9,206 bases of DNA from a virus (Duplodnaviria; Heunggongvirae; Uroviricota; Caudoviricetes): positions 1-9,206 of the IMG/VR virus record IMGVR_UViG_2534681940_000023; one strand, given 5' to 3'. The translations under genes were made by a program, and so were the position numbers. Within the stretch, counting starts at the first letter, position 1, and each line of letters begins with the position of its first letter. Shown here piece after piece: positions 1 to 7,533 of the stretch. Below the pieces are notes generated by a model, which saw only the letters and a program-made list of their open reading frames with translations, was not told where the DNA came from and did no database searches.

Positions 1-108
1 AGGACACGCCCCTGCATAAACAGGGGCATCAGCTCTGAACCTGGCCTGAACAATACGATCCCCATACGCGGGGCAATTTCAGGGGTCAGTAGTGCTCTCA
101 CGGTCACC

Positions 109-918
109 TCAATGAACGGTATCGAGCAGCTTTAACAGCTCAGGGAATCGGGATTCGAAGAAATGCGGCTGCGTCTCGCGCGGATTTGCGGGACTGGTGA
201 TGTTCTTGCCGAACATGCAGCCTTTCGCTGTCAGCGACCAGAATTTTTTGATGTTGTTAATCGCGGTACGGCTGTATCGTTCGCGCTGCTCGACGATCCC
301 CAGCTTCACCATCTGGTGATATGCCTGATTAGCTGTCAGGCGGATACCATACTGCTTCAGCAGTGCACTCAGTGACAGCGTGGGACGGCTTGAGCCATCA
401 GGCGCGTCAGCAGGAGCATCAATGGCATAGCGCGGTGCCAGATTCGGTAAGCCAACAGCCTCCTGGAGTTTCTGACAGGCACCAAGCACTGAAGAGTTAG
501 ACAGGTTTAACTCCCGGCGCATAAAGTCCAGCAGAATCACGCCAGCCTGCATCTTGTCAGCAGCCTGCCCGGATAATTTTTCCGGTGCGCTGGTTACCAT
601 ATCGAAAGTACGGATCACCTTCAGATGGAATGACGGGCTGATCCACATTGCATAGGCATACACCAGTTCCTTGCAGACATACGTTCCCCGTTCATTTCCC
701 CCATGAATCACACTCACCGGGTCAACACCCAAATTCTGGGTGTTGGTCAATTCATGAACAAGCTCAGCAGTCTGTTGGCTGGAAAGAAACTTTCCTGGCT
801 CCTTGGTTCTGGCATTTGCACCAGATGCTACTGCTGCGCGATGCAGATCGTTCAGGCTGTAACGCCCATAAGCATCACGACGAACTTCAATACCATCAAT
901 GACCATCAGATTATTCAT
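109..918 (-). CDS. KilA-N domain protein (Bro/antirepressor-like), 269 aa; start moved to internal ATG at 918
   Basis: N-terminal region (GTYVCKELVYAYAMWISPSFHLKVIRTF) matches the KilA-N DNA-binding domain pattern. GAGGAG Shine-Dalgarno sits 7 nt upstream of the ATG at 918; the track ORF start at 1020 would overlap rusA and has no RBS. Confidence 0.8.
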   Translation of the reverse strand: MNNLMVIDGIEVRRDAYGRYSLNDLHRAAVASGANARTKEPGKFLSSQQTAELVHELTNTQNLGVDPVSVIHGGNERGTYVCKELVYAYAMWISPSFHLKVIRTFDMVTSAPEKLSGQAADKMQAGVILLDFMRRELNLSNSSVLGACQKLQEAVGLPNLAPRYAIDAPADAPDGSSRPTLSLSALLKQYGIRLTANQAYHQMVKLGIVEQRERYSRTAINNIKKFWSLTAKGCMFGKNITSPANPRETQPHFFESRFPELLKLLDTVH

Positions 919-937
919 ACTTCGTTTCTCCTCTTGA

Positions 938-1327
938 TCAGGCGGCTGCACCCGCCGTTTTCTCGTACTTACTGATAGTGATCTCGACCTTCCCTCCCGG
1001 GATAACCGGTCCCCACTCAACCAGCATTCTTTTCACCTGACTGTCGTCTTCCCACACACCCGCATGGGTCAGGGCGTCAAACAGCGCCTTGTTATAGTTG
1101 TCCAGATCGCGGATCCGGTTATCCGGCGGAAACAACACGATCTCCACTGAAGCAGGTGCCGACGTTGGTTTCGGCAGACGACGTAACTGCTCAACTATTG
1201 CTGCACACGCCGCGCTCTGGAATTTGCGCCCCGCCGCGCTTATCAGGCTCTTACCTGCAAACGCCCCTTTGTTGGGGTGTCGCCAGTACGTGTTCACGCT
1301 GGGCGGAAAAGGCAGGATCAGCTTCAT
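938..1327 (-). CDS. rusA: RusA Holliday-junction resolvase (crossover junction endodeoxyribonuclease)
   Basis: 129 aa; the RIRDLDNYNKALFDALT acidic motif and overall pattern fit the RusA family. Start ATG overlaps the upstream gene's stop as ATGA. Confidence 0.85.
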   Translation of the reverse strand: MKLILPFPPSVNTYWRHPNKGAFAGKSLISAAGRKFQSAACAAIVEQLRRLPKPTSAPASVEIVLFPPDNRIRDLDNYNKALFDALTHAGVWEDDSQVKRMLVEWGPVIPGGKVEITISKYEKTAGAAA

Positions 1328-1650
1328 ACTTTCAGGCCCCTCTCATGTAACCAGTGGGTTGCACGCAGCCTTGCGTTTTCCTCACCGGCAAGCAGTGCGC
1401 GGATAATCCCGACCGCCTCGCTGTCGTCGTCCTTCACCGCGGTATGAAGCGTTATCCCCCGGGCCACGCCACGCTTTATCGTGATGACGCCTTTTTTCTC
1501 CAGTGCGCGAAGATGCTCCACCGCTGCATTCACCGAACGGTATCCCAGCATGGTTGCCACCTCCTGATTGGTTGGCGGGAAGCCACGTTCTTTCTGATAA
1601 GAAATCAGCATATCCAACACCTGCTGCTGGCATTGAGTTAACGTCGTCAT
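1324..1650 (-). CDS. LexA-like N-terminal winged-helix DNA-binding protein (no peptidase domain)
   Basis: 108 aa; QQQVLDMLISYQKERGFPPTNQEVATMLGYRSVNAAVEHLRALEKKGVI resembles the LexA DNA-binding domain. ATGA overlap with the Dam gene stop. Confidence 0.6.
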   Translation of the reverse strand: MTTLTQCQQQVLDMLISYQKERGFPPTNQEVATMLGYRSVNAAVEHLRALEKKGVITIKRGVARGITLHTAVKDDDSEAVGIIRALLAGEENARLRATHWLHERGLKV

Positions 1651-2300
1651 GCCGCCATCTCCCTTACCAGTTTTTCTGCCTGCTGGCGAACCTGCGCCAG
1701 AAAGGCCTCACCACATGCCTCAAGTTCATCGCGCCCGATGTAGCTGATTGCCGGTCCCTTCCAGGTCTTGTCGAAAACAGCAATAGCACCAGCGAAGAAA
1801 GCGCCTGTCGGCACCTGCTTCTCATCCTTCGGGATAAACCAGGCAGGCAGTTCAAAACCAATACGCCCGCGAATAAAAGCAATATGATCTGCATCTTCCG
1901 GCCACCACACTTCGCTGGTGGCAGCTTTGATCAGGAAAACATAGCGCCCGCCTTTATCACGCATGGCACTGGCATGCTTCATGATGTAACGCATGCCGGT
2001 GATGTATTGCCCCTCATGCTGACTGGCGCGGCTGTATGGGGGATTACCAAAGGCAGCACCTTTAAGCTCCGCAAGACGTTCTGACCAGTCATGCGCCAGC
2101 GCGTTGTCTTCCGCCGTGTAATACGCGGCACATTTGGCGTTATCACCGTCAGTGAACAGATCCAGAACAAACGGACCAAACAAGGTGTTAATTCCCCAGA
2201 AAATGTTGTCCGGCGTGCGCCACTGATCGCCCACTTCCTTCAGTTCATGGGCTGGTTTGTTCCGCAGTTCTACCAGCGCCTGGCAATATTTATTACTCAT
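1647..2300 (-). CDS. Phage-type DNA N6-adenine methyltransferase (Dam family)
   Basis: 217 aa; NPPY catalytic motif (GNPPYS) and the FVLDLFTDGDNAKCAAYYTAEDNALAHDW region are typical of phage Dam methyltransferases. Confidence 0.8.
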   Translation of the reverse strand: MSNKYCQALVELRNKPAHELKEVGDQWRTPDNIFWGINTLFGPFVLDLFTDGDNAKCAAYYTAEDNALAHDWSERLAELKGAAFGNPPYSRASQHEGQYITGMRYIMKHASAMRDKGGRYVFLIKAATSEVWWPEDADHIAFIRGRIGFELPAWFIPKDEKQVPTGAFFAGAIAVFDKTWKGPAISYIGRDELEACGEAFLAQVRQQAEKLVREMAA

Positions 2301-2392
2301 TAAGCCCCCACGTAAAAAGCATCCGCAATGTCTCCGGAAGTACAGCCCGGATGGGCTTCAATGAATTTCTGAACGTCATTTAACAGACTCAT
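2300..2392 (-). CDS. Hypothetical small protein (30 aa, MSLLNDVQKFIEAHPGCTSGDIADAFYVGA)
   Basis: Not in the ORF track (too short). ATG at 2392 is preceded by a GGGGGTG SD-like sequence; its TAA stop overlaps the Dam ATG by 1 nt (TAATG). It exactly fills the gap between the O-like and Dam genes. Confidence 0.3.
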   Translation of the reverse strand: MSLLNDVQKFIEAHPGCTSGDIADAFYVGA

Positions 2393-2394
2393 GA

Positions 2395-3375
2395 TCACCC
2401 CCTGAATCCTGCCGGGATCTGGCTGTAGTCCACGTTGTCGTAACTGGCTTTGAAGTACGGGTCTTCACGTTTTTCTATGTGCGTGCTGACGGACGGCGAT
2501 AAGCGCAGGGAAAGCTCATCCCATTTTTCCCGCAACTTCGACGGGCTGAGCACGTTACGGCACCAGAACGGATCGCGGCTGACGCGGCTGTACATCTCGC
2601 AGATTTGTTTGTGAGTACGACCATCCTGCACACACATCAGGCGAATTTCGTTTGCCCATGCTGTCCAGTTCGGTTCTTTGGGACGAACCACCTCGCCGTC
2701 ACATTCGGCGGCCTGCTCGTACAGGGCGATGATTTTTTTCCAGAGCCACTGTGCGCAGGTCAAATCATCCTGCGTTCCCCACTGGCGCTTTTTAGGGCTG
2801 AATACAACCGCATCAGGATGGCGAGTTAAAAACTCCTGTTCAGCCGTTTGCGTGTCCGGTTGCGAAGCGTCCGGACGAGAAGAGGTTTTATTCTCTGTAG
2901 TAATCTCTGTTGTATTCTCTGTAAGATCGAAATTGGTTTTCCCTTCTCCGCGGCGAGGGGTTTCCCGTGTCCGCTGTGAAGGCTTTCCCTCCTCCGCGAA
3001 ATTGGGTTTTACAGTTTCCCGAAAACGGGTTTCCCCATTTCGGGAAAACTGATTGTTTTCATTGATAAGTTCATTAAGGCGCTCACAATCTATACGGTAG
3101 AACATTTTGTGCTCAAGACGCTTGTTGGTTTCAACCAAAATGCCTCTGGACACAAGATGCTTACGCGCTACAGCCTGTTGTTCAAATGTAAGTCCGGTTT
3201 CGTGTTGTATCTCTTCACGCGTTTTATGTACGCCTTCCGCTGCATGTGCTTTATCCTGCCAGTAAAAAATCTGACCAAAGAAAATAACAGCGTGCGGACT
3301 TCCCATGTATTTAACGAGCCCAGGGTAATAAGCAACCGGATGCCCAAAATCGAGCAGAAGATCAGACGGACGCAT
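2395..3375 (-). CDS. Replication initiation protein, O-like N-terminal region with DnaT-like C-terminal domain
   Basis: Central linker is encoded by iteron DNA, as in lambda O. The C-terminus ...YSQIPAGFRG resembles the C-terminal end of E. coli DnaT as I recall it. Likely start is ATG 3375 (GGGAGG SD 5 nt upstream); the track start at 3381 is GTG. Confidence 0.75.
   Translation of the reverse strand: MRPSDLLLDFGHPVAYYPGLVKYMGSPHAVIFFGQIFYWQDKAHAAEGVHKTREEIQHETGLTFEQQAVARKHLVSRGILVETNKRLEHKMFYRIDCERLNELINENNQFSRNGETRFRETVKPNFAEEGKPSQRTRETPRRGEGKTNFDLTENTTEITTENKTSSRPDASQPDTQTAEQEFLTRHPDAVVFSPKKRQWGTQDDLTCAQWLWKKIIALYEQAAECDGEVVRPKEPNWTAWANEIRLMCVQDGRTHKQICEMYSRVSRDPFWCRNVLSPSKLREKWDELSLRLSPSVSTHIEKREDPYFKASYDNVDYSQIPAGFRG
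2890..3050. repeat. Putative replication origin iterons inside the initiator gene
   Basis: Three 12-bp-period repeats with CTCTGT core (2893, 2905, 2917), then five ~23-bp-period repeats GG(G/C)TTTCCC..CCGCG starting 2935, 2957, 2981, 3004, 3027, including the palindrome CCCGAAAACGGG at 3018..3029. Confidence 0.6.
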
Positions 3376-3595
3376 AGCCACCTCCCAGACGCTTAAACAT
3401 TTTCCCGGACTGAAAAGCCACCAGCGGATAACTCAGGGTATGAGTACGCCCCTGAACCTGACAGACAACCTTCTGGCTTTCTGTGTTGACCAGACAAACC
3501 CGCAGAACGTGACCGTTGCTGGTGGTGAACCACTGCCCCACACGGGGGCAGTGGTTGTATCGGTGATACAGAGAATTCACAACACGACGAATCAT
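3362..3595 (-). CDS. Hypothetical protein (77 aa)
   Basis: ATG start overlaps the upstream stop as ATGA; its 3' end overlaps the O-like start. No recognisable family. Confidence 0.5.
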   Translation of the reverse strand: MIRRVVNSLYHRYNHCPRVGQWFTTSNGHVLRVCLVNTESQKVVCQVQGRTHTLSYPLVAFQSGKMFKRLGGGYASV

Positions 3596-3786
3596 GGACG
3601 CACCTCCGCCGTTGTGATGTATTTAACCGGGCTGCCTTTCATTGCGATGATTTCACACATCTCCGCTGCTTTACGTTCCGCTGTTTTCCTGGATTTATAG
3701 CGGCGGTGCCAAACAGACGTATCCGTGCGAACTGATACATCGTTTCTGTATTCCGTAGTGGAGATGATGATTTCGTAACTAATCAT
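3592..3786 (-). CDS. Hypothetical protein (64 aa)
   Basis: ATG start overlaps the Rha stop as ATGA (translational coupling). No recognisable family. Confidence 0.5.
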
Positions 3787-4346
3787 GGGCGTACCTCCTT
3801 GTCAGAACCATTCAGCCTGGAATCAACAAGTGCAGCACCAAAAACAGCATCACCTACACGGTCGTACAGTTTGCCAGCCAGCGGAGATTCAACAGCCTTA
3901 AGCATGGGATAAAGCTGGCTTCTCCAGATTTGATGGATTTCACGCAAATGCAGGTATACGCCTCTGGCGTTTTGTGCGACAGATGACATCTCAGCCGCAC
4001 CAGCTCCTGATAAGCTCCTCTCCATCTGGTTAAAGGCATTGATGTATGCCTCTTTGAACCGGGCGGCACGCTTGCCAGTGAAGCCCATAGCAAGGAATGC
4101 GAAGCCGTCGCGGGTGATTTGATAGCAGGGAAGTTTGCGAGTACCGCCGTTGGGCTGGCGTACCAAAATTGATGTCTCCGCAAAATTGCGGGCACAAAAC
4201 TCTGGAGAACAATCCAAAATGCGGATCTTTTTCAGAACATCGTCATGACGTTTAGAGAAGAAGTCAGCAACAGCCAAAGAAGATGTAACAGCCTGACCAT
4301 CAACGATGGCAATTTCAGGTTGAGAGAGAGTTGGGAAAGTAGTCAT
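3783..4346 (-). CDS. rha: Phage regulatory protein Rha (187 aa); C-terminal part of the 553-aa track ORF
   Basis: [32 protein letters not shown] is the Rha N-terminal domain signature, and it starts about 10 residues after the ATG at 4346, as in typical Rha proteins. AGGGG lies 9 nt upstream. Confidence 0.8.
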
Positions 4347-4638
4347 GGTGACAGCCCCTATGTTGAATTCAAAGAACTCACCACATGGGACGCCAATCAC
4401 AGAGGTGGTGAGACGTACAGGGTTGGCGTAACCGGTCAACATAGAACCCGGCGCATCTTGCGATGCCCCTGCACGCCCCACCATAATTTGGACGTAGCAA
4501 TGCTCATGATACGAAAAGACCGCATGAGCGCGGTTATGCTCTATATTGAATTCCAGGACGCCAATCCCGACACCCGCTTTATAAGGTGCCTGAACAGTGT
4601 AACGTCCCGAAATTGAGGAATCAATGTTTTGATAAAAT

Positions 4639-5031
4639 TCAGCGATTAGACGCTTCTTTTCTACCCATATTAACTTTGAACAAGAGCTCCATACGACGAG
4701 TCCAGACACCACGTTCTTTGAGTTGTGCTCTGGCTTCTTCGCGCTCAGATACGGAAGTTCTGACAATACGATTTCCAGCCAGATTGCGGCGATATTCTCC
4801 AAACGCGACTGACTGAAGGTATGCAGCGGAGCTTTTGTACTGATAGATGGCTCTTCGAAGGCTGTTTTTATATTCCTTAGGTATATGTCCGAGATCGGCA
4901 AAAAGCTCATGAACGATATCGTGAACAAGCGGAACAACTTTGTATGGAATAACAAAGAAGCTTTCTGGATAGCGTTCAGCCAATACTTTAATGATTTCTT
5001 TATTTGCAAGATGCCTTGCTTTTCTTCCCAT
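4639..5031 (-). CDS. ProQ/FinO-domain RNA-binding protein (130 aa)
   Basis: [17 protein letters not shown]...[18 protein letters not shown]...GNRIV...EEARAQLKE parallels the ProQ N-terminal FinO-like domain (KEVIAFLAERFP...LRSALRLYTSSWRYLYGV...EHARKQLEE, from memory). GGAG SD about 10 nt upstream of the ATG. Confidence 0.75.
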
Positions 5032-5091
5032 ATACCATTCTCCATTACTCCAGATATCAGAATGATATATCCAGGTTCAAGCAGTTCAAGC

Positions 5092-5444
5092 TTATGCTGG
5101 TGCTTCGCACTCAACAAAATCACGACGAAACAACCACAGCGGGCTGAAGCATTCATGCGGATAACCATCACGCAGGTAAATAACCCGCTGTGTTTCCGGT
5201 TCCCAACGAATGACTCTGACGGGCACTCCGTAGTGATCTTTGAACCAGCGGTTAACTTGTTGCAAAGGACTGTCTCCTTCTGCCGGTTGAAATCACCCAC
5301 AGCCCACTCTGCAAATCTGTGGGTTACAATTTCCCTGTCACCTGGTACATTCACTGCATAGCAATACTCCACCTTCGCTTTTCCACCCGGTACAGGAAGC
5401 GCAATCAGTTGCGAGCGACGGTAGTGTGTTGTTAAACTGTTCAT
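5092..5444 (-). pseudogene. Frameshifted gene of unknown function: N-terminal 50-60 aa in one frame, C-terminal 57 aa in the -1 frame
   Basis: ATG 5444 is ATGA-coupled to the upstream gene and encodes a protein-like [52 protein letters not shown], after which that frame turns low-complexity. The -1 frame from about 5292 to the TAA at 5092..5094 encodes [56 protein letters not shown]. Confidence 0.45.
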
Positions 5445-6082
5445 GCGTTAGTTTCTCCACAACCAGAAGCAATCGACGCCACGACGCCCGGAGCTGCACA
5501 CTCGCGGGCGTTACTCTTTTCCGGCGCACAAAAAACACGAAATAACAGTGTTAAATGCTCCTTCCACTTCGCCATTACTTGGTAGCTGTTCTCTTCGATT
5601 TGCTCACGCTCAGCCTGGTCAATAACTCCATCAGCAGTTGCCTTGCGTAAGTACTGGGAATGCTTGCCAATCCATTCTATTGACTCCATCAGCCGCTGAT
5701 TAATGTCACCATTGTCAATGTCATCAATGACCACCAGCGGCACAAACACCCCATTACTACGACGGGCTATTGCATCCGTTACATGCCTGGTACCACTGGC
5801 ATCCTGTAAAACCATGGCCCACTCAAGTGGAAAAATTTGATCCCCACCGCTACGCAGTCTGTTATGCAATTGATCTTTTGCTGGGGTGATATCATCAGAT
5901 TTATACAAACCAAGAATTTCTGCTGCTTCCTCATAGCCATGAGGTAAATCAGCAATCGTTCTTCGTATTGCTGCCACCAGCCATGCTGGTTGCTTATCAA
6001 CTTTCCATTCAGGTTCTTTACCCACGTTTAAGCCCTCATATCTGTGGTTTCTGTAAATCGATTTATCCATTAGATTTTTCAT
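5441..6082 (-). CDS. Phage regulatory protein in the CII/YdaT position (213 aa); function assignment tentative
   Basis: Sits immediately downstream of cro-like and upstream of the replication genes; the AAEILGL segment looks helix-turn-helix-like. Start taken at ATG 6082 (alternatives 6070 or the track's 6139, which would overlap cro by 77 nt). Confidence 0.5.
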
Positions 6083-6263
6083 AAAGCTCAGGTTTAAATG
6101 GCAACCGTCCGCAAGTTCTATATGCAGCCTCTGCTGCACGTCCTTTTGGAATTAACTGGCCAGGACGGTTTCGCCACTGATAAACGGCTTCAGTTGTTAT
6201 GCCGAAAAAAGCAGCAACTTTCTCAATGCTGCCGAAGTAGCTTTCGATATCGTCAGTCGTCAT
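6063..6263 (-). CDS. cro: Cro-like HTH transcriptional regulator (66 aa)
   Basis: Small HTH protein (SIEKVAAFFGITTEAVYQWRNR) divergent from the cI-like gene; GGAGGG SD upstream of ATG 6263. Confidence 0.75.
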   Translation of the reverse strand: MTTDDIESYFGSIEKVAAFFGITTEAVYQWRNRPGQLIPKGRAAEAAYRTCGRLPFKPELYEKSNG

Positions 6264-6360
6264 ATGCCCTCCAAACTAAGTTTTATTAGATGTTAATTAT
6301 CAATCTATCTTAGGTCAATAAAAACTAAGATTACTTAGTAATTAAAGAAATGGTGCTCCT
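6264..6360. promoter_or_regulatory. Divergent promoter/operator region (OR-like) between cro and cI
   Basis: AT-rich 97-bp intergenic region with two 16-bp operator-like sites, ACTAAGttttATTAGA (6275..6290) and the palindrome ACTAAGattaCTTAGT (6324..6339). Minus-strand TTGACC-17-TAACAT is a candidate PR. Confidence 0.6.
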
Positions 6361-6987
6361 ATGGAAACGGTTGGTCAGCGTATAAAAGCTCTGAGAAGAG
6401 TTACCAGAACGTCCCAGAAAGAATTGGGTAAATTTTGTGGAGTAAGTGACGTTGCTGTGGGGTACTGGGAGAAAGACATCAATGTCCCTGGTGGGGAAGC
6501 ACTTTCAAAATTAGCGAAGTTCTTCAATACGTCAATAGATTACATTCTTTATGGTGCGGAGTTTGAAGGCAAACTCGTCACAAACATGCGCAGAGTTCCT
6601 GTAATCTCGTGGGTTCAGGCTGGGCAGTTTACTGAGTGCAGGACAGCAGAAGTGTTTAGTGAAGTAGACAAGTGGGTAGATACATCATTAAAGATTGGTG
6701 ATAACTCATTTGCATTGGAGGTTAAAGGCGACTCCATGACTAACCCTAACGGCCTCCCAACAATACCAGAAGGCGCAACAGTGATTGTAGATCCTGATGC
6801 AGAACCCCGGCATGGAAAAATAGTCATCGCTAGACTTGATGGAACAAACGAAGCCACAGTAAAAAAATTAGTTATCGATGGCCCTCAAAAGTTTTTAGTG
6901 CCATTAAATCCCCGGTACCCCAACATTCCGATCAATGGTAATTGCCTCATCATTGGTGTAGTCAAAGGAGTTCAATACGAACTCTAG
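6361..6987 (+). CDS. cI-like prophage repressor, HTH N-terminal domain with S24 (LexA-like) autopeptidase C-terminal domain
   Basis: 208 aa; N-terminal HTH; Ala87-Gly88 candidate cleavage site (VQAG); Ser125 in GDSM and Lys168/169 (VKKL) match the S24 catalytic dyad. Confidence 0.9.
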   Translation: METVGQRIKALRRVTRTSQKELGKFCGVSDVAVGYWEKDINVPGGEALSKLAKFFNTSIDYILYGAEFEGKLVTNMRRVPVISWVQAGQFTECRTAEVFSEVDKWVDTSLKIGDNSFALEVKGDSMTNPNGLPTIPEGATVIVDPDAEPRHGKIVIARLDGTNEATVKKLVIDGPQKFLVPLNPRYPNIPINGNCLIIGVVKGVQYEL

Positions 6988-7004
6988 CCCCCCTTTTCTC
7001 TAAC

Positions 7005-7075
7005 CAAAACACCGAACTAAGAAAAGTTTGGTGTTTTCTCTTGCCATCAAAACTAAGTTAAGTTAGATTTTATAT
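7005..7075 (+). promoter_or_regulatory. OL/PL-like operator-promoter region downstream of cI
   Basis: Two more ACTAAG-N4-NTTNGN sites (7016..7031, 7052..7067). Candidate promoter TTGCCA (7041..7046), 17-nt spacer, TAGATT (7064..7069), overlapped by the second site. 8-bp inverted repeat AAAACACC/GGTGTTTT (7005..7012, 7029..7036). Confidence 0.5.
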
Positions 7076-7164
7076 CAAAGATAACGAACAGGCAGGACGC
7101 CCACGAAGTAGCCGACGGTGGCGTATGAATGACCGGATGATTCGCGCATGGCAGGAGAGTGAAT

Positions 7165-7533
7165 ATGGATGGCAGTATCGACAACCAACGAGATGCCTGG
7201 CTTGTGGTGATTGAAGCAGCAAAAACTGCATTAAGCCAAGTTGAAAGCAGTAACTACAGAACAGTTAAACAAATGGCTTTGGGCTCTATTATCTATGCCT
7301 TTGAAAGGCTGGACTTTGATTTTGAAGCAACGAGTATTCTGTCAGAACAACATGAAAAAATGAATAGAGAAGACGCCGCAGCCTATATCGGCGTAGAAGC
7401 GCAAACCTTAGCTAATTGGGCTAGCACAGGAAAAGTTCGAATACCTTTTTTAAAAATCGGTAGAAAGGTTATTTACCTAAAAAGTGATCTTGATGCCTAT
7501 CTTGCCTCATCGAAGGCAAATACCACCAAGTAG
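7165..7533 (+). CDS. HTH (AlpA/excisionase-like HTH_17-type) DNA-binding protein, 122 aa; first gene of the leftward-type early operon
   Basis: C-terminal REDAAAYIGVEAQTLANWASTGKVRIPFLKIGRKVIYLKSDLDAYL resembles an AlpA/Xis-type HTH. AGGAGA SD 6 nt upstream of ATG 7165 (the track start at 7159 is GTG). Confidence 0.6.
   Translation: MDGSIDNQRDAWLVVIEAAKTALSQVESSNYRTVKQMALGSIIYAFERLDFDFEATSILSEQHEKMNREDAAAYIGVEAQTLANWASTGKVRIPFLKIGRKVIYLKSDLDAYLASSKANTTK

What the first reader, a model, noticed from the sequence alone, without database searches (positions are those of the whole stretch)
2395..3375. Replication module is an O-like initiator fused to a DnaT-like C-terminus, with no helicase-loader gene nearby
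In lambda, O is followed by P, and many lambdoids carry a DnaC-like loader. Here the initiator is followed only by a 30-aa ORF and Dam. The C-terminus ends ...SQIPAGFRG, resembling the end of host primosomal protein DnaT. This suggests the phage recruits the host DnaB helicase through the host primosome/DnaC route rather than its own loader.
Basis: partly seen in the sequence, partly recalled or inferred. Interest (0 to 1): 0.5.

Follow-up and report, generated by a model that had tools for sequence, protein, structure and literature searches.

The report
Lambda-O-like initiator carrying DnaT's tail
A prophage replication-initiator gene of the lambda O type ends in the same short peptide as the host restart protein DnaT; across hundreds of phages that peptide goes with DnaC-type helicase loaders or with no phage loader at all, never with lambda P, which gives a testable idea of how this phage, and DnaT itself, hand over the DnaB helicase.

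Summary
ORF 2395-3375 (-) encodes a 326-aa initiator ending SQIPAGFRG; E. coli DnaT ends SQIPPGFRG. No helicase or loader gene lies in the window, or is annotated in a 42.9-kb relative with the same C-terminal half.

The last ~150 aa are not DnaT-like. Residues ~176-297 are the lambda O C-terminal domain (family profile vs lambda O, E=8e-51). Only the disordered tail matches DnaT, and no DnaT-domain signal exists (Pfam none; hhalign 0.1% without the tail). The N-terminal part is a winged helix, and iteron-like repeats sit in its own linker-coding DNA.

Tail type tracks loader type:
- O-domain proteins with Trp-rich tails were followed by a lambda-P homologue in 37/37 genome loci.
- IPxGFRG-tailed ones had P in 0 of 13 (DnaC homologue 2, nothing 11).
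- Of 184 viral ORFs with the tail, in seven or more domain architectures, 25 had an adjacent DnaC homologue; none had P or DnaB.
- Of 79 viral DnaC homologues, 65 follow a gene ending [IV]PxGF[RK]G.
- K-12 has two such pairs: dnaT-dnaC and ydaU-ydaV.

Best reading (inferred, untested): the tail is a portable adaptor for DnaC-type loading, and this phage uses host DnaB-DnaC. New variant of a known kind.

The parts
2395..3375 (-). Replication initiator gene (326 aa from ATG 3375; a GTG at 3381 would add 2 aa; stop codon at 2395-2397)
   Evidence: ORF list. phrog_391 'replication initiation O-like' at 5.6e-82. Identical 326-aa protein in E. coli on 107 contigs. Annotated 'Primosomal protein I', 'DNA replication protein O' or 'replication protein' in related phage records.
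3040..3369 (-). N-terminal winged-helix DNA-binding domain (residues ~5-114 in the 328-aa numbering), the presumed origin-recognition module
   Evidence: AF2 model with helix/strand pattern H29-44, E51-53, H55-62, H66-78, E82-89, E92-97, H99-114 and pLDDT 73-90. Weak Foldseek matches to winged-helix proteins, including DnaD N-domain 2v79 and RepA_N initiators 5kbj, 4pql and 4pt7, at E 0.06-0.4. No Pfam hit, PF04492 included. This part is unrelated to the N-terminal 149 aa of mEp460_4F5's initiator, although the C-terminal 177 aa are 97% identical.
2935..3051 (.). Iteron-like array inside the gene: GGNTTTCCC-type units phased at 23 bp (2935, 2958, 2981, 3027; a weaker unit seen by eye near 3004), plus an imperfect palindrome at 3012-3051. 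Candidate origin.
   Evidence: Repeat families D1, D2 and D3 and inverted repeats I2 and I3. GGGAAAMC occurs 4 times in the window, all within 2936-3049, against 0.64 expected. The position, in linker-coding DNA just after the DNA-binding domain, parallels the annotated lambda ori iterons inside O. Binding is not tested.
2885..2924 (.). A/T-rich 12-bp tandem repeats (TATTCTCTGTAG x3) next to the iterons, encoding TENTTEITTENK. Candidate unwinding element. The mosaic breakpoint with mEp460_4F5 is at ~2928.
   Evidence: Repeat families D4 and D5. BLASTN breakpoint at window 2928.
2857..3039 (-). Disordered low-complexity linker (residues ~115-175)
   Evidence: AF2 pLDDT 26-34 over residues 111-175. 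Variable in length and sequence among homologues.
2491..2856 (-). Lambda-O-type C-terminal helical domain (residues ~176-297)
2398..2490 (-). Disordered C-terminal tail (residues 298-328) ending in the DnaT-type peptide SQIPAGFRG (2398-2424)
   Evidence: 8/9 identity to the end of DnaT. Low pLDDT: below 50 for residues 298-316 and 326-328 in the full-length model, and 60-80 in the domain model. Motif conserved in homologues and in DnaT. The identical tail REDPYFKASYDNVDYSQIPAGFRG occurs on proteins with a different preceding domain, the mEp460 type.
2300..2392 (-). 30-aa remnant of a PerC-like gene. It occupies the slot directly after the initiator, where lambda has P.
   Evidence: phrog_1324 and phrog_23071. 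A 395-bp in-frame internal deletion relative to the 162-aa gene of mEp460_4F5. The full-length gene follows the initiator in nearly all of 80 related contigs.
1647..2300 (-). Dam-type N6-adenine methyltransferase, the next gene downstream (not a loader)
   Evidence: PF05869 at 1e-45.
3362..3786 (-). [quoted passage not shown] Too small to be P- or DnaC-type loaders, but their role is unknown.
   Evidence: phrog_1153 and phrog_7046, both of unknown function; no Pfam or NCBIfam hit.

Best explanation
The gene encodes a modular lambda-O-type phage replication initiator.

- Its N-terminal winged helix presumably binds the iteron-like repeats that lie inside its own coding sequence.
- A disordered linker follows, then the conserved lambda-O C-terminal domain.
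- The protein ends in a disordered tail carrying the peptide [IV]-P-x-G-F-R-G-COOH, which is also the end of the host restart protein DnaT.

I propose that this tail is a portable docking peptide that couples an origin- or fork-bound protein to DnaC-type helicase loading, that is, to the DnaB6-DnaC6 complex through a surface on DnaC or on DnaB in that complex. In lambda the Trp-rich O tail and the P loader would play the same pairing. Because this phage encodes neither P nor a DnaC homologue, its initiator would recruit the host DnaB-DnaC complex directly and so imitate what DnaT does at restart forks.

Shown: the domain anatomy, the tail identity, the absence of a loader gene, and the genomic tail-to-loader association. 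Inferred: iteron binding, the physical partner of the tail, and the dependence on host dnaC.
For: 1. Anatomy. The O-type C-terminal domain scores E=8.4e-51 against lambda O, and phrog_391 scores 5.6e-82. The AF2 models show a winged-helix domain, a disordered linker, a helical C-terminal domain at pLDDT 90, and a disordered tail. Iteron-like 23-bp-phased repeats and A/T-rich repeats lie in the linker-coding DNA, as in lambda. N-terminal domain plus iterons swap as one unit and C-terminal domain plus tail as another.

2. Tail. It is 8/9 identical to the end of DnaT, and up to ~21 residues match in relatives. It is conserved in DnaT of Enterobacteriaceae.

3. No loader. None in the window. None is annotated in the 42.9-kb phage mEp460_4F5, whose initiator shares the same C-terminal 177 aa at 97%. 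None in 80 IMG/VR contigs with the same C-terminal domain.

4. Tail type tracks loader type in 77 loci from GTDB species-representative genomes plus the window. WxxEAW tails: 26/26 with a lambda-P homologue directly downstream. NTDW tails (lambda O type): 11/11. GFRG-type tails: 0/13 with P, 2 with a DnaC homologue, 11 with none. Downstream genes in the 'none' cases are PerC-like, Dam, MT-A70, ParB-HTH and DUF1627. C-terminal domain cores with W-tails (72-75% identity to the window's core) are closer to the window than other GFRG-tailed cores (57-70%), so tails were exchanged independently of the domain.

5. The tail is portable. DNA-pattern scans found 184 informative viral ORFs ending IPxGFRG, on seven or more domain architectures counting the window's own: lambda-O C-terminal domain, HTH_36 with an unknown C-terminal domain, Phg_2220_C, true DnaT domain, DUF1376 with DnaT domain, DUF1376 alone, and Phage_rep_O with a YdaU-like C-terminal domain. 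Of these 184, 25 had a DnaC homologue at -4 to +6 nt, none had lambda P and none had DnaB.

6. Inverse test. Of 79 viral DnaC homologues, 65 are immediately preceded by a gene ending [IV]PxGF[RK]G, and 8 more by one ending IPxGF(T/V)G. Of 79 lambda-type P genes, 79 are preceded by an NTDW tail.

7. E. coli K-12 has two such pairs. dnaT-dnaC has a 2-nt gap. Rac ydaU-ydaV has a 6-nt gap, YdaU ends ...VNTVSLPDSAIPPGFRG, and YdaV is 50% identical to DnaC.

8. Literature. How DnaT recruits DnaB/DnaC is unknown, and DnaT residues 154-179 are absent from the crystal structure and from the cryo-EM models, whose DnaT C-terminal-domain units were built from that crystal structure (PMC13377028, PMC4132743, PMC11087952).
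Against: - There is no binding or genetic evidence. [quoted passage not shown]
- The authors of the preprimosome structure favour the DnaT N-terminal domain as the DnaB/DnaC recruiter (PMC13377028). The phage protein has nothing like that domain.
- The genomic associations are not phylogenetically independent. The viral DnaC homologues sampled are all ~50% identical to E. coli DnaC and may descend from one ancestral 'X-tail + DnaC' module. The 80 lambda-P loci are nearly identical to each other.
- Most tail-bearing ORFs (159 of 184) have no DnaC nearby. The partner could therefore be any conserved host factor.
- My loader detection used only three references (E. coli DnaC, E. coli DnaB and lambda P), so other helicase types would be missed outside the window.
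- Removing DnaT residues 154-179 weakens ssDNA binding 2.7-fold (PMC4132743). This gives the tail region an alternative role.
- The prophage may be defective, given the PerC-like deletion.
- Two small upstream ORFs have unknown function.
Confidence: 0.55

Rival explanations
1. Primosome route. The tail docks the initiator onto PriA or PriB, so that the host PriA-PriB-DnaT primosome assembles at the phage origin and then loads DnaB through DnaT and DnaC.
For: DnaT works inside the PriA/PriB/DnaT complex, and its C-terminal domain contacts PriA (PMC13377028). The tail's partner is unknown. Most tail-bearing phage modules have no loader of their own. RAST calls the protein 'Primosomal protein I'.
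Against: In the preprimosome models the DnaT C-terminal-domain units were built from the 84-153 crystal structure, and no density is described for residues 154-179. PriA contact is made by the folded C-terminal domain and PriB contact by the acidic linker. The phage protein has neither of these. This route does not explain why the tail is so tightly linked to phage-encoded DnaC homologues and excluded from P-type modules.
Confidence: 0.15
2. The tail is a nucleic-acid-binding or self-association element that improves ssDNA binding and cooperativity of whatever domain precedes it. It is not a protein-docking peptide, and helicase recruitment happens by another surface or another host route.
For: DnaT 84-179 binds dT30 with an apparent Kd of 9.9 uM, against 27 uM for DnaT 84-153, and with a higher Hill coefficient (PMC4132743). 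The motif contains Arg and Phe.
Against: The effect is small and involves 26 residues, not the motif specifically. The tail sits on seven or more domain architectures. Its presence depends on loader type, which a generic DNA-binding tail would not predict. Strict placement at the free C-terminus is typical of docking peptides (general knowledge).
Confidence: 0.1
3. The phage does have a helicase-delivery factor that went unrecognised, or it initiates by a loader-independent route. Candidates are the 64-aa and 77-aa ORFs upstream, the PerC-like protein in intact relatives, or a gene elsewhere in the prophage. A loader-independent route could be transcription- or recombination-driven. In either case the tail is incidental to loading.
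For: Two adjacent ORFs have unknown function. Only 9.2 kb is visible here. Another loaderless O-domain class with a different tail (IWQQAAEQ..., in Proteus and Providencia) exists, so being loaderless does not require this tail.
Against: The complete 42.9-kb relative has no annotated helicase, loader or primase. The PerC-like gene is deleted here and absent in other GFRG-tailed loci. The small ORFs are not conserved next to other tail-bearing initiators. The motif is under evident purifying selection in loaderless modules.
Confidence: 0.12
4. Relic. The tail was inherited or recombined from an ancestral 'dnaT-like tail + dnaC' module and persists here without function after loss of the phage dnaC.
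For: Tail and DnaC homologue are adjacent with host-like spacing in several lineages, so co-transfer is plausible. The window prophage shows decay, in the PerC-like deletion.
Against: The seven motif positions stay fixed while x and the flanks vary, across hundreds of loaderless contigs and many sequence groups. A functionless disordered tail would decay or be truncated.
Confidence: 0.05

Closest known systems
Bacteriophage lambda O protein (with its partner P)
   Same: Homologous C-terminal domain: the family profile hits lambda O residues 168-286 at E=8.4e-51. Same overall plan of an N-terminal DNA-binding domain, a linker and the C-terminal domain. Repeats lie inside the gene's own linker-coding DNA next to an A/T-rich stretch. 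Modular exchange of N- and C-terminal halves. Same position in the early-right operon after cro- and cII-like genes.
   Different: The N-terminal domain is not the Pfam Phage_rep_O domain. No P gene follows. The tail is IPAGFRG instead of lambda O's ...DLTNTDWIYGVDL. The C-terminal domain has an insertion, EQAAECDGEVVRPKE, relative to lambda O.
E. coli DnaT (primosomal protein I)
   Same: The C-terminal peptide SQIP(A/P)GFRG sits at the free C-terminus. The tail region is disordered or unresolved in both (PMC4132743 and PMC13377028). Both are presumed to act upstream of DnaB/DnaC loading.
   Different: No DnaT DNA-binding domain. No similarity to the DnaT N-terminal part in pairwise BLASTP. 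Not adjacent to a dnaC gene. DnaT is targeted by PriA/PriB to forks, whereas this protein is presumably targeted to a specific origin.
Rac prophage YdaU-YdaV of E. coli K-12
   Same: YdaU is a phage initiator-like protein ending ...VNTVSLPDSAIPPGFRG. It shows the same use of the DnaT-type tail on a non-DnaT protein in a lambdoid early operon.
   Different: YdaU has a DUF1376 N-terminal domain and a different C-terminal domain. It is followed after 6 nt by its own DnaC paralogue, YdaV, at 50% identity. The window phage has no such gene.
DopC/DopE (domesticated lambda O/P; Brezellec et al. 2017, PMC5509034)
   Same: A precedent for an O-like N-terminus combined with DnaT-derived C-terminal sequence.
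   Different: By HHpred, DopC carries the folded DnaT C-terminal domain (2ru8) in place of the O C-terminal domain, and it is paired with a P-type loader. It is thought to be no longer an initiator. The window protein keeps the O C-terminal domain and has only the tail. Whether DopC has the IPxGFRG tail was not tested.
DnaD-like domains and replisome organisers of Firmicutes and their phages (B. subtilis DnaD, SPP1 G38P/G39P)

Membership tests
Lambda O-type replication initiators | C-terminal O domain (the part of lambda O that works with P) | tested here: met
   A profile of 119 homologues hits lambda O residues 168-286 at E=8.4e-51. phrog_391 and phrog_9773, both 'replication initiation O-like', score 5.6e-82 and 9.5e-69.
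Lambda O-type replication initiators | N-terminal Phage_rep_O DNA-binding domain (PF04492) | tested here: not met
   No Pfam hit at E<=10. The domain is a winged helix of another type. Ten of 89 family members do carry PF04492; others carry HTH_36, DUF1376 or DnaD_N.
Lambda O-type replication initiators | Origin (iterons plus an A/T-rich region) inside the initiator gene | tested here: inconclusive
   Four to five repeats phased at 23 bp at 2935-3051 and A/T-rich 12-bp repeats at 2885-2924, in the linker-coding region. The layout resembles lambda's. Neither binding nor origin activity can be tested here.
Lambda O-type replication initiators | Partner P-type loader gene immediately downstream | tested here: not met
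   The downstream genes are a PerC-like remnant and Dam. No lambda-P homologue in 80 related contigs or after any of 13 GFRG-tailed loci.
DnaT (primosomal protein I, PF17948) | DnaT three-helix ssDNA-binding C-terminal domain | tested here: not met
DnaT (primosomal protein I, PF17948) | N-terminal oligomerisation domain and acidic PriB-binding linker | tested here: not met
   Pairwise BLASTP finds nothing beyond the tail apart from a 23-residue, 35%-identity stretch that is not significant. The N-terminus is a winged helix. The linker is Thr/Glu/Arg-rich and is not the DnaT acidic linker. PriB binding itself cannot be tested here.
DnaT (primosomal protein I, PF17948) | C-terminal tail ...PDxxIPxGFRG-COOH | tested here: met
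   SQIPAGFRG against SQIPPGFRG. Tail conservation across DnaT.
DnaT-tail-bearing phage initiators (grouping proposed here, not an established family) | Initiator-like protein ending [IV]PxGF[RK]G at the free C-terminus, in a module with a DnaC homologue or with no loader, and never with a P-type loader | tested here: met
   Tail present. No loader in the window. Group behaviour documented.
DnaD-like / replisome-organiser proteins | DnaD_N-type winged helix plus a DnaD-like (DDBH2) C-terminal domain | tested here: inconclusive

The most novel reading that the evidence does not exclude
The peptide [IV]PxGFRG-COOH is the missing DnaB-DnaC recruitment element of DnaT. Temperate phages of Enterobacterales move it as a cassette onto otherwise unrelated initiators, including lambda-O-type ones. 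Trp-rich tails such as lambda O's NTDWIYGVDL would be the equivalent adaptor for P-type loaders.

If so, initiator tails form a loader-specific 'address code'. Loaderless phages such as this one would replicate by mimicking DnaT's tail to capture the host DnaB6-DnaC6 complex. The host dnaT-dnaC operon may itself descend from such a phage 'tail-bearing initiator + DnaC' module.
Probability: 0.4. Interest if true: 0.85.

Novelty: new variant of a known kind. Interest (0 to 1): 0.66.

Why it matters
Three points, all resting on an inferred partner for the tail.

1. Replication restart. How the PriA/PriB/DnaT preprimosome recruits DnaB/DnaC is an acknowledged open question (PMC13377028, PMC11087952). 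DnaT's last ~26 residues have never been seen in a structure, and I found no paper assigning them a function. The phage comparison singles out a 7-residue peptide, which makes the question testable with a peptide pull-down and a tail deletion.

2. Loaderless phages. The reading explains how a large, medically relevant group of lambdoid phages can replicate with one replication protein and no loader. The group includes mEp460/SfV/cdtI-like phages and the Stx 'Eru6'-type phage Stx2a_WGPS2, which was among the window's matches. The paper that defines the Eru types says nothing is known about the proteins involved in their replication (PMC8951638).

3. Lambda itself. The conserved O C-terminal domain persists in modules with no P gene. 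That suggests the O tail, rather than the folded domain, is the loader-specific element. This is a prediction for the still unresolved O-P contact.

If the tail turns out not to bind the DnaB-DnaC complex, the finding shrinks to a well-documented mosaic initiator with a curious shared tail.

Tried and rejected
- Deep homology between the lambda-O C-terminal domain and the DnaT C-terminal domain: the helix patterns look similar by eye, but the profiles give no support. Dropped.
- Foldseek with the full-length model returned only winged-helix matches to the N-terminal domain, so a domain-only model was needed.
- The profile search of PDB with alignment A2 was dominated by the N-terminal domains and was uninformative for the C-terminal domain.
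- The third homologue search, with a DnaT-domain profile, was meant to learn whether DnaT relatives in DciA-type (non-DnaC) bacteria or DopC lack the tail. It returned only Enterobacteriaceae DnaT. No answer.
- The first attempt to scan genome contigs with the broad alignment failed for lack of a conserved pattern. It was redone with a narrower alignment.
- The lambda-P inverse scan returned only near-identical lambda-type P genes. It is consistent but adds little diversity.
- Literature searches for the motif, for YdaU/YdaV with DnaT, and for 'DnaT-like' found nothing relevant. This is absence from the searchable library only; many subscription-journal papers on DnaT (for example Fujiyama et al. 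2014, FEBS J) could not be read.
- Invariance of DnaC Ala84, the site of dnaC1331, among nine DnaC homologues is noted but too weak to use. About a quarter of all positions are invariant.
Full report
**1. What is at the coordinates**

The window is the immunity and early-right region of an mEp460/SfV/cdtI-like lambdoid prophage of E. coli. The best match is Escherichia virus mEp460_4F5 at 98% identity over 76% of the window.

The genes read leftwards on the minus strand from the divergent cI-like repressor (6361-6987, +):
- a cro-like gene (6063-6263)
- a cII-like gene (5441-6139)
- a stretch with Ash/Rha and ProQ/FinO-like reading frames (3783-5444)
- two small ORFs of unknown function (3592-3786 and 3362-3595)
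- the gene in question (2395-3381 from a GTG, 3375 from the ATG)
- a 30-aa ORF (2300-2392)
- Dam (1647-2300)
- a LexA-DNA-binding-domain protein (1324-1650)
- RusA (938-1327)
- a KilA-N protein (109-1020)

The 326-aa product from the ATG is present unchanged in E. coli on 107 contigs.

**2. The observation**

The protein ends ...YDNVDYSQIPAGFRG. DnaT, read from E. coli K-12, ends ...[13 protein letters not shown]. This is 8 of 9 identical residues at both free C-termini.

The peptide [IV]PxGFRG is kept in homologues whose neighbouring residues vary and in DnaT across Enterobacteriaceae. In 56%-identical relatives the similarity to DnaT runs for about 21 residues. It is real and not a chance match.

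The gene is followed by a 30-aa ORF and Dam, as stated. The short ORF is what is left of a 162-aa PerC-like gene after a 395-bp in-frame deletion. Nothing in the window matches a helicase, loader or primase family.

The complete 42.9-kb genome of mEp460_4F5 has an initiator that shares the window protein's C-terminal 177 aa at 97% identity but has an unrelated N-terminal half. That genome has no annotated helicase, loader or primase gene. In 80 viral contigs with a near-identical C-terminal half, no ORF within 6 kb on the initiator's strand resembles DnaC, DnaB or lambda P.

**3. Anatomy of the protein**

AlphaFold2 with a 26-sequence alignment gives four parts:
- a winged-helix domain, residues ~5-114
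- a disordered linker, residues 111-175
- a helical domain, residues ~181-297
- a low-confidence tail

A domain-only model with 89 sequences reaches pLDDT 90.

The N-terminal domain has no Pfam match. It resembles winged-helix initiator and DnaD_N domains only weakly.

The key result concerns the C-terminal domain. The family is large: 2626 clusters at 50% identity with E<=1e-3. A profile of it hits lambda O residues 168-286 at E=8.4e-51. So this is the standard lambda O C-terminal domain, for which no Pfam model hit.

In family members this domain is joined to HTH_36, Phage_rep_O, DUF1376, DnaD_N and other N-terminal domains. Compared with mEp460_4F5, the window protein shares the C-terminal 177 residues at 97% but has an unrelated N-terminal 149 residues. 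The DNA breakpoint is at 2928.

Immediately on the N-terminal side of that breakpoint lie 23-bp-phased GGNTTTCCC repeats (2935-3051). On the other side lie three A/T-rich 12-bp repeats (2885-2924). This is the lambda arrangement of iterons plus an A/T-rich region inside the O gene. I infer, but cannot show, that this is the origin and that the N-terminal domain plus iterons form the specificity unit.

**4. Is the C-terminus DnaT-like?**

Only the tail is.
- Pfam's DnaT domain (PF17948) and NCBIfam give nothing even at E<=10.
- hhalign between the family and DnaT alignments gives 7.9% probability, falling to 0.1% when the tails are removed.
- Foldseek on PDB with the domain model finds nothing at E<=0.001.

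The same tools readily detect genuine DnaT domains in other phage proteins. The tail resemblance stands.

**5. What the tail goes with**

Members of the O-domain family carry alternative tails:
- [IV]PxGFRG
- Trp-rich tails such as HWNSPEAWENTL
- the lambda O type, D-x-NTDW-x-G-x
- in Proteus and Providencia, a longer ...IWQQAAEQ... end

*Genome loci.* In 77 loci from GTDB species-representative genomes plus the window, I classified the tail and searched the adjacent ORFs with E. coli DnaC, E. coli DnaB and lambda P.

| Tail class | Loci | Lambda-P homologue directly downstream | DnaC homologue | None |
|---|---|---|---|---|
| WxxEAW | 26 | 26 | 0 | 0 |
| NTDW (lambda O type) | 11 | 11 | 0 | 0 |
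| GFRG type | 13 | 0 | 2 | 11 |
| IWQQ type | 21 | 0 | 0 | 21 |

Seven further loci had other tails: four with a lambda-P homologue and three with none.

In the loaderless GFRG-type and IWQQ-type loci whose downstream ORFs I scanned, those genes are PerC-like, methyltransferases, ParB-HTH proteins, DUF1627 and KilA-N. Domain cores with Trp-rich tails are closer to the window's core (72-75% identity) than other GFRG-tailed cores are (57-70%). So tails have been exchanged independently of the domain. On a neighbour-joining tree of the core, the loader state changes at least 8 times while the rule holds.

*The tail outside the O-domain family.* DNA-pattern scans of IMG/VR for ...IPxGFRG-stop returned 214 ORFs of usable length, of which 184 had enough downstream sequence to judge. 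They fall into dozens of sequence groups, and fewer than half carry the O domain (48 of 116 in the first scan).

Pfam shows several architectures:
- HTH_36/DnaD_N with an unknown C-terminal domain (the mEp460 type, which has the window's exact 24-residue tail)
- Phg_2220_C
- a true DnaT domain
- DUF1376 with a DnaT domain
- DUF1376 alone (YdaU)
- Phage_rep_O with a YdaU-like C-terminal domain

Of the 184, 25 have a DnaC homologue starting -4 to +6 nt from their stop codon. None has lambda P or DnaB nearby, and 159 have none of the three.

*Inverse tests.* Of 79 viral DnaC homologues with an upstream gene in view, 65 are preceded by a gene ending [IV]PxGF[RK]G and 8 more by one ending IPxGF(T/V)G. 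All 79 lambda-type P genes sampled are preceded by an NTDW tail, though these were nearly identical sequences.

*E. coli K-12 itself.* It holds two instances. dnaT-dnaC has a 2-nt gap. In the Rac prophage, ydaU-ydaV has a 6-nt gap, YdaU ends ...VNTVSLPDSAIPPGFRG, and YdaV is 50% identical to DnaC.

**6. Mechanism proposed**

Shown:
- the modular anatomy
- the tail identity
- the absence of a phage loader
- a strong genomic rule that the IPxGFRG tail accompanies DnaC-type loaders or no phage loader, and that Trp-rich tails accompany P

Inferred: the tail is a free-C-terminus docking peptide that couples the DNA-bound protein to DnaC-type loading of DnaB. The window phage has no DnaC or P of its own, so it would capture the host DnaB6-DnaC6 complex in this way.

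This fits the literature:
- DnaT residues 154-179 are missing from the crystal structure. The cryo-EM models used that crystal structure for their DnaT C-terminal-domain units, so the tail is not modelled in contact with PriA or PriB (PMC4132743, PMC13377028).

It competes with the published suggestion that the DnaT N-terminal domain recruits DnaB/DnaC. The phage proteins lack that domain but keep the tail next to DnaC genes. I take this as an argument for the tail, not as proof.

It also implies that the folded O domain, retained in modules with no P gene, has a role other than P binding, such as origin complex assembly or DNA melting. This last point is inference only.

**7. Limits**
- The associations are genomic and partly non-independent.
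- Loader detection outside the window used three reference proteins.
- Most tail-bearing modules have no DnaC nearby, so another conserved host factor (PriA, PriB, PriC, SSB, or DnaB alone) cannot be excluded as the partner.
- A modest ssDNA-binding contribution of DnaT 154-179 is on record.
- The prophage may be defective.
- I could not run a complex prediction, nor learn whether DnaT relatives in bacteria without DnaC lack the tail.

**8. Comparison and novelty**

By its C-terminal domain and layout, the protein is a member of the lambda-O-type initiators. It fails two classical features: the PF04492 N-domain and a P partner. It is not a DnaT-family member, because the defining domain was tested and is absent.

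The resemblance to DnaT has been picked up by automatic annotation ('Primosomal protein I'). A related chimera, DopC (O-like N-terminus plus DnaT C-terminal domain), is published (PMC5509034).

I found no paper that mentions the tail motif, its portability, or its link to DnaC-type loaders. The paper that defines the Stx-phage 'Eru' replication types states that nothing is known about the proteins involved in their replication (PMC8951638).

Noticed in passing
window 2300-2392 (-): The 30-aa ORF after the initiator is a PerC-like gene with a 395-bp in-frame internal deletion. It keeps the first 26 and last 4 codons of the 162-aa gene of mEp460_4F5. The full gene follows the initiator, with a 4-base overlap, in nearly all related contigs.
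   Followed up: yes
window 3783-5444 (-), overlapping 4639-5031 (-): A 553-aa ORF joins a phrog_1170-like N-terminus (aa 1-108) to Ash + Rha domains (aa ~263-552). Its middle is overlapped, on the same strand in another frame, by a 130-aa ProQ/FinO-family ORF (PF04352, 1e-13). The real gene structure is unclear: three genes, a fusion, or a frameshift. A ProQ/FinO-like gene in a lambdoid early operon is unusual.
   Followed up: no
L285:3620-5230 (E. coli K-12 Rac prophage) and L003:4239-5518 (dnaT-dnaC): YdaU (DUF1376) ends ...VNTVSLPDSAIPPGFRG, like DnaT, and is followed by the DnaC paralogue YdaV. Phage modules of the L209 type (DnaT domain + tail, then a DnaC homologue 2 nt downstream) mirror the host dnaT-dnaC operon. 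This suggests the operon descends from a phage replication module.
   Followed up: partly
L112-L130, L139, L141, L148, L157-L161 (Proteus, Providencia, Morganella, Edwardsiella, Sodalis, Acerihabitans prophages): A further class of lambda-O-domain initiators (350-390 aa) has a longer C-terminal extension ending ...W(A/R)GIWQQAAEQAA.... It also lacks any P, DnaC or DnaB gene nearby; Dam or other methylases, or KilA-N, follow. This is a second, unexplained loaderless solution.
   Followed up: partly
L437, L439, L448, L479 (IMG/VR contigs): A minority of genes immediately upstream of phage DnaC homologues end in (E/Q)QFI(P/S)EDF. This acidic/aromatic tail is reminiscent of the SSB C-terminal tail rather than the DnaT-type tail. 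Others end IPDGFTG or IPGGFVG.
   Followed up: no
L353 (IMG/VR contig): One 289-aa protein carries the tail twice in tandem: ...PDKQIPAGFRG-ARQERDINQISEPDSTIPPGFRG.
   Followed up: no
window 1324-1650 (-): A 108-aa protein consists of a LexA DNA-binding domain (PF01726, 3e-19) without the S24 peptidase domain. It is conserved between Dam and RusA in this phage group and could act as an uncleavable LexA mimic. RAST mislabels it as LexA.
   Followed up: no
window 1-2750 versus 5750-7500: G+C falls from 0.52-0.58 in the nin-like region and initiator C-terminal half to 0.41-0.47 around the immunity region. The initiator gene itself drops from 0.54 (C-terminal half) to 0.46-0.48 (N-terminal half). 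This is consistent with the mosaic junction at ~2928.
   Followed up: partly
alignment A5 (DnaC, YdaV and seven phage DnaC homologues): DnaC Ala84 is invariant in all nine homologues that sit next to tail-bearing genes. Its A84Y change (dnaC1331) specifically blocks PriA/PriB/DnaT-dependent loading in vitro (PMC11087952). About a quarter of all positions are invariant at this divergence, so this is only a lead.
   Followed up: no
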